This document shows positions 2,789 through 5,472 of a stretch of 64,000 nucleotides of DNA, in pieces; position 1 is the first letter of the stretch; the number at the start of each line of letters is the position of its first letter. The DNA is taken from the NCBI RefSeq assembly GCF_009914755.1, contig NC_060925.1. One strand, written 5' to 3'. Under the pieces are notes generated by a model. The model was not told the origin of the DNA and ran no database searches. It saw nothing but the letters and a program-made list of their open reading frames with translations. The stretch is from the human T2T-CHM13v2.0 reference genome, Homo sapiens. The position numbers were made by a program, and so were the translations under genes.

Positions 2789-4200
2789 GTGTGGTGGCAG
2801 GCGCCTGTAATCCAAGCTGCTTGGGAGGCTGAGGCAGGAAAATAACTTGATCCCAGGAGGCAGAGGTTGCAGTGAGCCAAGATCGCGCCACTGCACTCCA
2901 GCCTGGGCAACAGAGGGAGACCCTGTCTCAAAATACATAAGTAAATAAATAAATAAATAAGTTCAGCTCCAAATTGGGGAAATGTGGGGTCCACAGAAAG
3001 AAGTGGTTATAATTACTAGGGGAACAGGGCCCTTTTACTGAGAGAGGAACACATACACCCTCATCAACACAGAGGCACCGACACAGAAAGGAAGAAACAG
3101 AGTCTTGGAGAAAGAGACAGAGGCAGGGTACCCGGAGTCAGGGACAGAGCACACAGACCCAGGGGAGCAGACAGAGGTGCATAGACGATAGATTCCCATT
3201 CGCTCAGATGGAGCCAGAGCAATGCCCGGGCACAGAGAGACCCAGCAGCTGGCAGAACAGAGGAGACGTAGGATAGAATGGTGGCTAGACAGGCGAGGGG
3301 CAGGAGAGGAGGAGCAAGGCAGGGGCCTTCATGGGGATCTGTCTGTCCGTACCAGCCGGGAGGCGTAGCCACCCTGGTGCTGCAGTCCCAGAAAGGTGTC
3401 CAGTCCTTCTCGGATCTGCAGGAAGAGGGCCTCCTTGGGGCCTGGGCATCCCGATGCTTGCAGTCTCCTCCTGAAACACACATCGCCACCACTACCGTCT
3501 GTATCCAGTGGCCAGTGACGGGCACCAGGGAGGAACACTGCCTCGCCTCAGCCCAGCCCTGTTGCTTGCCCCCAGCCCAGCCCTTCCTGTTGGCATAAGC
3601 ACAGCCCAGACCCAAACTGGTCCTACTTTGGGGCTCTGCTTTGCCAGGGCTGCAGAGTTGGCTGTGGGCAAGAGTGGCCCCTGCTGGTCAAAGGGCAGTA
3701 CTGCCTCCAGAAGAAAGCCAGGGTTCAGGGGAAGGCGAACAGCAAGAGCAAGCTGAATTCTCCCTCCTTGCCTGGTTGCTGATGCCAACCTTTGCCCCTG
3801 CTCAGCCAAATAGTGCACTCAGGACTCCCTTCCCTCTCTAACCAAGGGGCAGAATTAATGCCTGACTGTGAAAGGTGGGTGACACTTGAAAGACCCTGAG
3901 ATACAGTTGGTGCCACATAAGGGGGGCCCAGGCATTTGGGCATCTCTGCTTTCAGCCAGCTACCCTTAGGAAGGTGCCATGAGCCCTGCAGGCATTGCTT
4001 CTCATCTGAGTTCCCACCCAAGCCAGTTCAGGGACAAGGCCCAGGGTCCTCTCCCCTCACTGAAACCAGCCAGCCCTGCCCGGGAGCTAGGGAAGGTTGG
4101 TTCACTCACCAGAGCTAAAGGAACTTGTTCAAGGGGACCATTGTCAAAGCAGAGAGACAGTGCCCTTCCATGGCCAGCAGCCCCTACAATGTTCACTCAC

Positions 4201-4410: not shown

Positions 4411-4959
4411 CTGCAACCAAAAGCCCGGCAAAGGCCTGGCAATGGGGCAGGCCAAATGTCCCAACCGTGAGACCACCTCTCTCAAGAAATCTCTGAAAGT
4501 TCTTTGGGCCTCGGTTTCCTTATCTGTAAAATGAGGAGATTGTGCCATATGCTCTCTGAGTTCCTTTGTGGTTCTATTACACCATTATGTGGTTCTATGA
4601 AACCCACCGTGGGAGGCAGAAGCAAGAAGATCCAGTGTCCTGATACTCCCCCTGACTCCACACCTCCCTCCCACTTCCACCCTCAGTCTTCCCTGAGAGA
4701 AGGAGGTAAGAGCCACTGTGGAGAGGCATATTTTGGAAGGCAGCATCCATCCTCCCCCAAAGGCCCACAAATGGGATTGAGCTCTGGTTCTCCAGGGAAA
4801 GGACTGAGGGCCCAGGTCTCCTTGATTCTTGTTGTTCTTCAGATGGTTGTCTCTTGAGGGAGATGACTAGAGAGTTATCTAGTTCCTTCCCACTTTCCCA
4901 TTTTCTCCAAGGTCTAGGCCTGGAAGGAAGGAGGTACAGGAGGTCCCCTGGGGGCTTAC

Positions 4960-5053
4960 GTATTCAGTGGGCCCTCGAGCTCCCTGCCAGGCCCCCAACT
5001 ATGTCTTCTGAAGACGTCTTTGTTTTCGGCCGTGGGCCCGGAAAGCCCCTGAC
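4960..5053 (-). other. Candidate upstream exon, probably of ARHGEF2, encoding an AKAP13-like FRRHSWGPG motif
   Basis: Acceptor cccctccaaag| and donor |GTAAGC; 94 nt; encodes QGLSGPTAENKDVFRRHSWGPGRELEGPLN; CpG-rich. The ARHGEF2 assignment rests on known 1q22 gene order. Confidence 0.65.
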
Positions 5054-5373
5054 CTTTGGAGGGGTACAGCATGCGAGCCATTCCCCTCCTTTATTTCCCC
5101 ATCTCTTCTTCCTCCAGTTGTTCTCTGGATTCAACTGCAGAAAGGCAGAGGCCAGTGTGGCCTCACGGGCACCTTGTCTCCACCTGCTCAGAACACGTCT
5201 GGGACGGCTCTGTTCGTGGGAGACACACACAGACCAGTCTGCGTCAGCAGGAAATAAGAGTGAGCAGGGTTCTAGAACTCTGAAACCTTGGGACTAGAAG
5301 TGTGTCACAGTCAGCTGGACTTAGGAGTGCCTAGCCACCACTCACTTTACTGAGACACATAACTGGATAATGT

Positions 5374-5472
5374 GTCACATTGTGACACATTGTGACCTCA
5401 GGGTCACATTGTGACACATTGTGACCTCAGGGTCACATTGTGACACATTGTGACCTCAGGGTCACATTGTGA
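5374..5472. repeat. 29-bp minisatellite, ~3.4 identical copies
   Basis: Unit GTCACATTGTGACACATTGTGACCTCAGG starts at 5374, 5403, 5432 and 5461 (partial). Confidence 0.95.

What the first reader, a model, noticed from the sequence alone, without database searches (positions are those of the whole stretch)
4960..5053. Exon-like segment encoding the AKAP13-type PKA/14-3-3 motif FRRHSWGPG upstream of ARHGEF2
Seen: a 94-nt minus-strand segment bounded by AG and GTAAGC that translates to QGLSGPTAENKDVFRRHSWGPGRELEGPLN, a frame missing from the ORF track. Known: AKAP13 (AKAP-Lbc) carries FRRHSWGPGK, whose Ser1565 is the PKA site that recruits 14-3-3 to inhibit GEF activity. ARHGEF2/GEF-H1 is an Lbc-family paralog on this strand, left of SSR2, and to my knowledge its canonical protein lacks this region. 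Inference: a 9-residue match here is unlikely to be chance, so this is part of an ancestral long ARHGEF2 N-terminus that could add another PKA/14-3-3 switch.
Basis: partly seen in the sequence, partly recalled or inferred. Interest (0 to 1): 0.82.

Follow-up and report, generated by a model that had tools for sequence, protein, structure and literature searches.

The report
Known long-isoform ARHGEF2 first coding exon
This stretch is the first coding exon of a long form of the Rho activator GEF-H1 (ARHGEF2) that is already modelled and was described in print in 2025-26; its RRHSW motif is inherited from the same ancestor as a known PKA/14-3-3 site in AKAP13, but nobody has yet tested whether it works as such a switch.

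Summary
The sequence is as described. The FRRHSWGPG coding pattern occurs twice in the 3.1-Gb genome, here and in AKAP13. It is not a new exon. The ORF from ATG 5081 to the donor at 4960 is 100% identical to the N-terminus of RefSeq models XP_011508441.1 and XP_011508438.2. It splices exactly, through GT-AG introns, into the common ARHGEF2 exons. Chen et al. (Nat Commun 2026, PMC13696713) describe this isoform as ARHGEF2-219, place RHSWGP at residues 26-31, and assign it to actin binding.

The "ancestral N-terminus" idea holds:
- 90 of 111 mammalian ARHGEF2 hits carry [KR]RHSW.
- The pre-C1 regions of ARHGEF2 and AKAP13 align (E 8.6e-10).
- Both show the same intron-phase series, 2,0,1,2,0,1.
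- The motif recurs upstream of the DH domain across the Lbc family (56 of 140 representatives; shuffles average 1).

The AG at 5054-5055 is not the acceptor the models use. The PKA/14-3-3 switch is untested, and the paper's text mentions neither PKA, 14-3-3 nor AKAP13. One extra finding: human residues 1-21 are read in a shifted frame compared with the chimpanzee, gorilla and gibbon protein models.

The parts
4960..5081 (-). Coding part of the first coding exon of the long ARHGEF2 isoform (RefSeq X1/X2; ARHGEF2-219 in Chen et al.). It encodes residues 1-40 plus 2 nt, with a phase-2 donor.
   Evidence: 100% identity over 40 of 40 residues to XP_011508441.1 and XP_011508438.2. tblastn. Exact spliced alignment with donor GAATAC|gtaagc.
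4986..5012 (-). Codons for F24 R25 R26 H27 S28 W29 G30 P31 G32. The Ser28 codon AGT is at 5000-4998.
   Evidence: Read. The pattern occurs only twice in the genome. F24, R26, H27, S28 and W29 are invariant in 18 aligned long ARHGEF2 proteins. RHSWGP is given as residues 26-31 in PMC13696713.
4954..4959 (-). Splice donor GTAAGC of intron 1.
3353..3470 (-). Second coding exon (118 nt, residues 41-80, RRLQASGCPGPKEALFLQIREGLDTFLGLQHQGGYASRL). Acceptor tgtgtgtttcag|, phase-0 donor. It holds the 51-71 segment that Chen et al. call the second actin-contact region. It encloses the RefSeq 'enhancer' 3389-3468.
   Evidence: tblastn 100%. Exact spliced alignment. Paper passages. Hub annotation table.
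5026..5217 (-). Remnant of the ancestral mammalian leader (MNRAVPEVFLAGGD..RRCLSAVESREQLEEEE..KEGNGSHAVPLRRSGAFRAHGR). In human it is broken into three frames. ACG (5217-5215) replaces the start ATG. There are in-frame TGA stops at 5190-5188 and 5165-5163, and frame changes near 5169, 5100 and 5024.
   Evidence: tblastn of macaque, lemur, pig, deer-mouse and opossum N-termini against human 4950-5320. Sequence.
5091..5102 (-). ATG GGG AAA TAA. This ATG starts the chimpanzee, gorilla and gibbon models (MGEIKEG...). In human it opens only a 3-codon ORF that ends 10 nt before ATG 5081.

Best explanation
Shown here. Window 5081-4960 (minus strand) is the first coding exon of the long GEF-H1 isoform. 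The exon splices through 3470-3353 and three further exons lying just left of the window (window coordinates -434..-551, -1450..-1489, -2683..-2776) into the common C1/DH/PH exons. All of these exons sit upstream of the canonical RefSeq start. This roughly 165-residue pre-C1 extension is ancestral. Exon for exon, it is the paralogue of the AKAP13 segment running from the FRRHSWGPG exon to the C1 domain.

From the literature. Chen et al. 2026 report that the isoform is made in differentiated intestinal epithelium, sits at adherens junctions, and needs RHSWGP plus residues 51-71 to co-precipitate actin.

Inferred. RRHSW is a conserved linear motif of the Lbc family that fits the PKA consensus R-R-x-S-hydrophobic. 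AKAP13 carries the identical motif. Its Ser1565 is a documented PKA site that recruits 14-3-3 and lowers RhoA activation, though the assignment of Ser1565 to this particular serine is recalled, not checked here. Ser28 of the human long isoform most likely serves as a basophilic-kinase phospho-site whose phosphorylation recruits 14-3-3 and/or releases the actin and junction contact. My odds are about 0.95 for the identity and ancestry and about 0.4 for the phospho/14-3-3 switch.
For: Identity: 40 of 40 residues match XP_011508441.1 and XP_011508438.2. The exact spliced alignment recovers every exon with GT-AG sites. The paper places RHSWGP at residues 26-31, uses an antibody to residues 6-28, and reports detection in human organoids and colon.

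Conservation: 111 ARHGEF2 proteins match residues 1-175. Of these, 90 carry .[KR]R.SW..., and the 21 without it are shorter models that start further downstream. FxRHSW is invariant in 18 aligned long forms.

Paralogy: hhalign gives probability 96.5% and E 8.6e-10, colinear over 203 columns and joining three conserved islands. A reversed-template control gives E 0.024 and probability 2%. The donor phases are 2,0,1,2,0,1 in both genes, with the islands in matching exons.

Family-wide: among 140 representatives with a located DH exon, 56 have [KR][KR].SW upstream (43 with exact RRHSW) and 1 has it downstream. Shuffles average 1.0, with a maximum of 4. AKAP13-like representatives score 9 of 9. 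Three of the 9 ARHGEF18-like representatives carry it (4 of the 9 have 420 or more residues upstream).

AKAP-Lbc S1565 as a PKA site leading to 14-3-3 binding and RhoA inhibition: review table in PMC9361040.
Against: No phosphorylation or 14-3-3 data for this serine were seen. The main text of Chen et al. contains no mention of PKA, 14-3-3 or AKAP13, and it gives the motif a different role, as an actin interface. In RRHSWGP the proline is at +3, not at the +2 of the textbook mode-1 14-3-3 motif. AKAP13's own PKA-anchoring helix lies outside the homologous region, and Pfam finds nothing in residues 1-182 of the long ARHGEF2. ARHGEF28-like representatives lack the motif (0 of 10), so it can be lost. 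That Ser1565 is the serine of FRRHSWGPG is recalled; the primary paper is not held. The current RefSeq annotation of this assembly does not extend ARHGEF2 into the window (hub table).
Confidence: 0.85

Rival explanations
1. The motif is purely a structural actin-binding surface, as Chen et al. propose, and is not a phospho-regulatory site. On this view its similarity to the AKAP13 site reflects shared ancestry without shared regulation.
For: According to the paper, AlphaFold-Multimer puts R26-P31 in contact with ACTG1, and the W29A/P31A mutant and a mutant of the 51-71 helix lose ACTG1 co-precipitation.
Against: The same RRHSW core is kept in AKAP13 (120 of 120 listed hits). It is also found in 3 of 9 ARHGEF18-like and many more distant representatives whose flanking sequences differ. 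That pattern fits a short kinase or reader motif better than half of a two-part actin surface. In AKAP-Lbc the motif is reported as a PKA/14-3-3 site. The two roles do not exclude each other.
Confidence: 0.35
2. In humans the exon is a decaying relic. The ancestral start and leader are destroyed, so the human long isoform is a minor or poorly translated product, and the motif survives only through recent common descent.
For: Human has ACG in place of the ancestral ATG, two in-frame stops and three frame changes upstream of the motif. The ape ATG now opens a 3-codon ORF just before ATG 5081. The current RefSeq annotation leaves the model out (hub table).
Against: From residue 22 onward the human sequence stays in frame, and all downstream extension exons are intact with canonical splice sites. 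Chen et al. report protein detected with an antibody to residues 6-28, which are partly specific to the human frame, in human organoids and colon.
Confidence: 0.1
3. Chance resemblance: an untranslated intergenic ORF that happens to contain nine AKAP13-like residues.
For: Nothing beyond the short length of the motif.
Against: Only 2 genomic matches against 0 for the control pattern. Exact identity with a gene model. Conservation in 90 of 111 orthologue hits. Matching exon structure in the two genes.
Confidence: 0.01

Closest known systems
Long GEF-H1 isoform: human ARHGEF2-219 / mouse Arhgef2-207 (Chen et al., Nat Commun 2026, PMC13696713; preprint PMC12776446), RefSeq models XP_011508441.1 and XP_011508438.2
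   Same: It is the same object. The N-terminal sequence is identical and RHSWGP is numbered 26-31.
   Different: Nothing differs in the sequence. The paper's main text does not discuss the AKAP13 paralogy, PKA or 14-3-3, nor, in the passages I read, the frame shift that makes human residues 1-21 lineage-specific.
AKAP13 (AKAP-Lbc) Ser1565 PKA/14-3-3 site
   Same: Same core motif, identical over nine residues in human, chimpanzee and gorilla. It sits in the equivalent exon with the same donor phase, followed by the same series of exons up to the C1 domain.
   Different: AKAP13 has about 1,500 more N-terminal residues, including its PKA-anchoring region. ARHGEF2-long starts about 75 residues before the motif in most mammals and 23 residues before it in human. 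Phosphorylation and 14-3-3 binding are documented for AKAP-Lbc (review) but not for ARHGEF2-long. Most mammals have K rather than R at the first basic position.
GEF-H1 Ser885/886 14-3-3 site in the C-terminus
   Same: A basophilic-kinase (PAK1, PKA) site in the same protein that docks 14-3-3 and lowers RhoA activation.
   Different: It lies at the other end of the protein and is present in all isoforms. The site discussed here exists only in the long isoform.
Upstream exon of ARHGEF18 on chr19
   Same: An ORF upstream of the ARHGEF18-like DH exons encodes ...[20 protein letters not shown] and ends in CGG AG|gt, a phase-2 donor as in AKAP13. ARHGEF18-like representatives carry RSMSTSRR[HY]SWE.
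   Different: The island-1 profile did not score it as significant (best E 0.6). That it belongs to published long ARHGEF18 isoforms is my recollection and was not checked here.

Membership tests
ARHGEF2 long isoform (first coding exon) | The translation is identical to the N-terminus of the gene model | tested here: met
   40 of 40 residues, 100% coverage, against XP_011508441.1 and XP_011508438.2.
ARHGEF2 long isoform (first coding exon) | Splices in frame, through canonical sites, into the shared C1/DH/PH exons | tested here: met
   The exact spliced alignment of residues 1-256 recovers 8 exons, with GT donors and AG acceptors preceded by pyrimidine tracts.
ARHGEF2 long isoform (first coding exon) | An orthologous exon exists in other vertebrates | tested here: met
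   111 mammalian hits, 90 with the motif, opossum included. Two long ARHGEF2-like representatives at 58-61% identity carry FRRHSWEPG and WRRHSWEPG, but their taxa are unknown.
ARHGEF2 long isoform (first coding exon) | Transcript and protein are expressed | not testable with these tools
   Reported by Chen et al. using isoform-specific antibodies, mass spectrometry in mouse, Pol II CUT&Tag and CAGE-defined promoters (passages). The supplements could not be opened.
   The model's coding sequence starts at ATG 5081, upstream of that AG. In other mammals the coding sequence continues upstream without a break.
AKAP-Lbc-type PKA/14-3-3 switch | PKA consensus R-R-x-S followed by a hydrophobic residue | tested here: met
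   R25 R26 H27 S28 W29. [KR]RHSW is present in all 90 motif-bearing orthologue hits.
AKAP-Lbc-type PKA/14-3-3 switch | Homologous position to the AKAP13 site | tested here: met
   hhalign E 8.6e-10. Same exon order and the same phases 2,0,1,2,0,1. That this serine is numbered 1565 is recalled. Full-length AKAP13-like representatives place it at about 1533-1568.
AKAP-Lbc-type PKA/14-3-3 switch | Textbook mode-1 14-3-3 motif R-S-x-pS-x-P | tested here: not met
   The proline is at +3 (RRHSWGP), as read. AKAP13 has the same sequence, so this does not separate the two.
AKAP-Lbc-type PKA/14-3-3 switch | Phosphorylated by PKA, with phospho-dependent 14-3-3 binding that lowers GEF activity | not testable with these tools
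   No data were found. 'HSWGPG' occurs only in the two Chen et al. texts, and these do not mention PKA or 14-3-3.
AKAP-Lbc-type PKA/14-3-3 switch | PKA anchored on the same polypeptide (an AKAP helix) | tested here: inconclusive
   Pfam finds no match in residues 1-182 of the long ARHGEF2. The homologous region begins only about 75 residues before the motif. Short amphipathic helices are poorly detected by this kind of scan.

The most novel reading that the evidence does not exclude
RRHSW, placed ahead of the C1 domain, is an ancient regulatory motif of the Lbc RhoGEF family. It is kept in AKAP13, ARHGEF2-long, ARHGEF18-like proteins and more distant relatives, and lost in ARHGEF28. In long GEF-H1, phosphorylation of Ser28 by PKA recruits 14-3-3 and switches off the actin/afadin anchoring that Chen et al. 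map to the same residues. On this reading cAMP would control which pool of GEF-H1 sits at adherens junctions. The human protein would be a natural truncation that keeps this site but has lost the two upstream conserved basic motifs (RRCLSAVE, LRRSGAFRAH).
Probability: 0.35. Interest if true: 0.55.

Novelty: already known. Interest (0 to 1): 0.3.

Why it matters
The exon and the isoform are already known, so the finding adds no new gene structure. Two points may still be useful.

First, the published "actin-binding" motif of junctional GEF-H1 is the exon-for-exon paralogue of the motif recalled as AKAP-Lbc's PKA/14-3-3 site. This gives a specific and inexpensive hypothesis, a Ser28 phospho-switch, linking cAMP signalling to epithelial barrier control.

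Second, the human N-terminus differs from the mouse one used in the knockout work. Humans lack about 50 ancestral leader residues and read residues 1-21 in a shifted frame. That matters when mouse results, or antibodies, are carried over to human.

Tried and rejected
- **PDB sequence search** with the 30-residue peptide found no match at E up to 10.
- **Own-genome protein search** with the 30-residue peptide found only the locus itself and missed AKAP13. The degenerate pattern search worked instead.
I fetched 80 kb upstream of the ARHGEF18-like DH exons and 120 kb upstream of the ARHGEF28-like DH exons and ran hmmsearch locally. Nothing was significant (best E 0.6). A plain regular expression then found the ARHGEF18 RRRSW exon. 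Nothing convincing turned up in the 120 kb of chr5, which may not reach far enough upstream.
- **AlphaFold2 model of the 1139-residue protein**, built on 18 aligned orthologues, was poor throughout: mean pLDDT 36.5 and pTM 0.21, with most of the DH/PH region below 50. The low confidence over residues 1-193 therefore says nothing about disorder. No fold search was run.
- **Literature.** 'RRHSWGP' appears in 0 papers. 'RRHSW' appears in 2 unrelated papers. 'ARHGEF2' + 'isoform' + 'N-terminal extension' returned 6 papers; I saw only the search listing and did not open them. Diviani 2004 (PMC514948) is not held.
- **dN/dS and PhyloCSF** could not be run, because no orthologous DNA is available here.
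- **No complex prediction** with 14-3-3 was attempted, because the method cannot represent phosphoserine.

Full report
**Observation**

An AG sits at 5055-5054 and GTAAGC at 4959-4954. The frame gives QGLSGPTAENKDVFRRHSWGPGRELEGPLN, inside a stop-to-stop ORF at 4956..5090.

A degenerate DNA pattern for FRRHSWGPG matches exactly twice in the 3.1-Gb assembly. One match is here and one is on chr15 at 83,407,728. The reversed control pattern matches nowhere. The chr15 ORF is AKAP13, at 99% identity to a human AKAP13 partial protein.

**What it is**

A search of the large protein collection with the 40 residues from ATG 5081 returned two human RefSeq models, XP_011508441.1 (1139 aa) and XP_011508438.2 (1138 aa), "rho guanine nucleotide exchange factor 2 isoform X1/X2". 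Both match at 100% identity over 100% of the query.

An exact spliced alignment of residues 1-256 of X1 recovers these exons, in window coordinates:

| Exon | Window coordinates | Length | Donor phase |
|---|---|---|---|
| 1 (from ATG) | 5081-4960 | 122 nt | 2 |
| 2 | 3470-3353 | 118 nt | 0 |
| 3 | -434..-551 | 118 nt | 1 |
| 4 | -1450..-1489 | 40 nt | 2 |
| 5 | -2683..-2776 | 94 nt | 0 |
| 6 (shared C1 exon) | -16595..-16739 | 145 nt | 1 |

- All introns are GT-AG, and the acceptors have pyrimidine tracts.
- The five extension exons lie upstream of the canonical RefSeq start at -6266, which is why the hub's table does not show them.
The AG at 5054-5055 is not the boundary used, because the coding sequence starts 28 nt further upstream.

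**Already in print**

The string HSWGPG occurs in two texts of the searchable library: a December 2025 preprint and its Nat Commun 2026 version. I read passages of the Nat Commun paper and its outline. According to those passages:

- It describes long GEF-H1 isoforms, human ARHGEF2-219 and mouse Arhgef2-207, in differentiated intestinal epithelium, located at adherens junctions with nectin-3 and afadin.
- It uses an antibody to residues 6-28 of the human isoform.
- It numbers RHSWGP as residues 26-31, which agrees with the ORF here.
- It proposes from AlphaFold-Multimer models and co-precipitation of mutants (W29A/P31A and a helix mutant) that this motif and residues 51-71 bind ACTG1.

The main text has no occurrence of "14-3-3", "AKAP13" or "PKA". 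A search for "GEF-H1" plus "long isoform" found no other paper on the subject.

**Conservation**

Residues 1-175 of X1 matched 111 ARHGEF2 proteins out of 526 candidates, all mammalian, including opossum.

Ninety of the 111 carry .[KR]R.SW...:

| Variant | Count |
|---|---|
| FKRHSWGPG | 65 |
| FKRHSWGPD | 13 |
| FRRHSWGPG (two human models, chimpanzee, gorilla) | 4 |
| FKRHSWGSG | 3 |
| LKRHSWGPD | 2 |
| FKRHSWGTS, LKRHSWGPG, FRRHSWEPG | 1 each |

- The other 21 are shorter models that begin in later exons.
- The perfect nine-residue identity with AKAP13 is thus confined to the African-ape rows. The ancestral mammalian match is eight of nine.
- In 18 aligned long forms, F24, R26, H27, S28 and W29 are invariant, while most of the extension varies.
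- Pfam has no family covering residues 1-182.

**Paralogy with AKAP13**

I compared a profile of 11 mammalian long N-termini with a profile of six tetrapod AKAP13 segments. The result was probability 96.5% and E 8.6e-10. With a relaxed alignment threshold the match is colinear over 203 columns. A reversed-template control gave E 0.024 and probability 2%.

The alignment joins three conserved islands:

| ARHGEF2-long | AKAP13 |
|---|---|
| F[KR]RHSWGPG | FRRHSWGPG |
| MLSKSVSMSGIN | PLTKSISLMTIS |
| LRRTFSFLLG..GKAKTREKEK | VSRTFSYIKNK..KSKEKEK |

The AKAP13 exons from the motif exon to the C1 exon are 193, 109, 55, 133 and 175 nt long after a phase-2 donor, giving phases 2,0,1,2,0,1. This is the same series and the same exon count as in ARHGEF2, and the islands fall in corresponding exons. 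The extension is therefore older than the split between the two genes.

**The rest of the family**

A full HMMER search of 1.84 billion representatives with the opossum long form returned 150 proteins, of which 149 were new ids. I classified these by their best match to one DH exon of each of the four human paralogues:

| Class | Representatives | With 420 or more residues upstream of the DH exon | With the motif upstream |
|---|---|---|---|
| AKAP13-like | 9 | 9 | 9 |
| ARHGEF2-like | 12 | 2 | 3 |
| ARHGEF18-like | 9 | 4 | 3 (RSMSTSRR[HY]SWE) |
| ARHGEF28-like | 10 | 7 | 0 |
| More distant | 100 | 59 | 41 |
| No DH exon located | 9 | 0 | 1 |

- Both long ARHGEF2-like representatives carry the motif. 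One of them, P0233 (1186 aa), keeps the whole leader as well as FRRHSWEPG.
- Overall, 56 of the 140 proteins with a located DH exon have [KR][KR].SW upstream, and 43 of these have exact RRHSW. Only 1 has it downstream. Composition-preserving shuffles average 1.0, with a maximum of 4.
- The library carries no names, so the taxa of the distant group are unknown.
- In the human genome, an ORF upstream of the ARHGEF18-like exons encodes ...[20 protein letters not shown]. It ends with a phase-2 donor, CGG AG|gt, as in AKAP13. The profile search did not score it as significant.

**The human N-terminus is remodelled**

Macaque, marmoset, lemur, cow, pig, dog, deer mouse, tenrec, armadillo and opossum models start with MNRxVPEVFLAGGD.VPQGHTRRCLSAVESREQLEEEE...KEGNG.HAVPLRRSGAFRAH..YDPFKRHSWGPG, with a few short additions in front of it.

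The human DNA still holds this leader, but in three shifting frames (sequence):

- (T)NRAVPDVF*AGGDKVP at 5217-5170, with ACG in place of ATG and a TGA stop.
- P*GHTGLCLSAVESREQLEEEEMGK* at 5168-5091.
- GEIKEGNGSHAVPLQRSGAFRAHGR at 5100-5026.
- The motif frame follows.

Chimpanzee, gorilla and gibbon models begin MGEIKEGNGSHAVPL.RSGAFRAHGRN.DVF.RHSWGPG in a single frame. Relative to those models, human has one base fewer in the G run at 5100-5097 and one base more in the A-rich run near 5024.

As a result, the ape ATG (5102) opens a 3-codon ORF in human. The human protein starts at ATG 5081, and residues 1-21 (MARMLYPSKGQGLSGPTAENK) are read in a frame that is not coding in the other species. 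This conclusion rests on protein models of the other species, not on their DNA.

**Mechanism**

RRHSW fits the PKA consensus. A review table lists AKAP-Lbc S1565 as a PKA site that lowers RhoA activity through 14-3-3 binding, citing Diviani 2004 and 2006.

The primary paper is not held.
- The numbering is at least consistent: full-length AKAP13-like representatives place this serine at about 1533-1568.
- GEF-H1 already has a PAK1/PKA 14-3-3 site at Ser885/886.

I consider a phospho-switch at Ser28 the most likely function of the conserved core, at about 0.4. It could act on the actin and junction contacts that Chen et al. map to the same residues. No data seen here test this. The proline sits at +3 rather than the textbook +2. 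ARHGEF28-like proteins have lost the motif.

**Verdict**

The exon and its isoform, however, are already modelled and published. What remains open is the PKA/14-3-3 hypothesis and the human-specific N-terminal frame.

Noticed in passing
window 5026-5217 (-): The ancestral mammalian leader of the long isoform survives in human only as a broken reading frame. ACG replaces ATG, there are two TGA stops, and there are three frame changes. Human residues 1-21 come from a frame that other species do not use. The conserved RRCLSAVE and LRRSGAFRAH motifs are lost from the human protein.
   Followed up: partly
window 5091-5102 (-): The ATG that starts the chimpanzee, gorilla and gibbon models opens only ATG GGG AAA TAA in human, 10 nt before the human start codon. 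If the transcript starts upstream of it, this would act as a very short upstream ORF.
   Followed up: no
window 5374-5472: A perfect 29-bp tandem repeat (3.4 copies, 100% matches). It lies between the long-isoform first coding exon and the start of the divergent lncRNA ARHGEF2-AS1 (5538, + strand), in what should be the shared promoter region.
   Followed up: no
window 3389-3468: The RefSeq 'enhancer' element lies entirely inside coding exon 2 of the long isoform (3353-3470).
   Followed up: no
G000:C19:7365206-7365600 (+), loci L017: An ORF upstream of the ARHGEF18-like DH exons encodes ...[20 protein letters not shown] and ends in a phase-2 donor, CGG AG|gt. The AKAP13 motif exon has the same phase and the same last bases.
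   Followed up: partly
P0275-P0301 and others: ARHGEF28-like representatives (0 of 10, of which 7 have long N-termini) lack any [KR][KR].SW upstream of the DH domain. Among the four paralogue classes compared, this one appears to have lost the motif.
   Followed up: partly
P0091, P0098-P0103, P0097, P0104, P0111: Many species have intermediate ARHGEF2 models. Some start inside extension exon 3 (MLSKSVSMSG...). Others start from a further alternative first exon (MPRPQGGPLPADPRRTGHLSGTAAPGW...). This suggests additional promoters between the long and the canonical starts.
   Followed up: no
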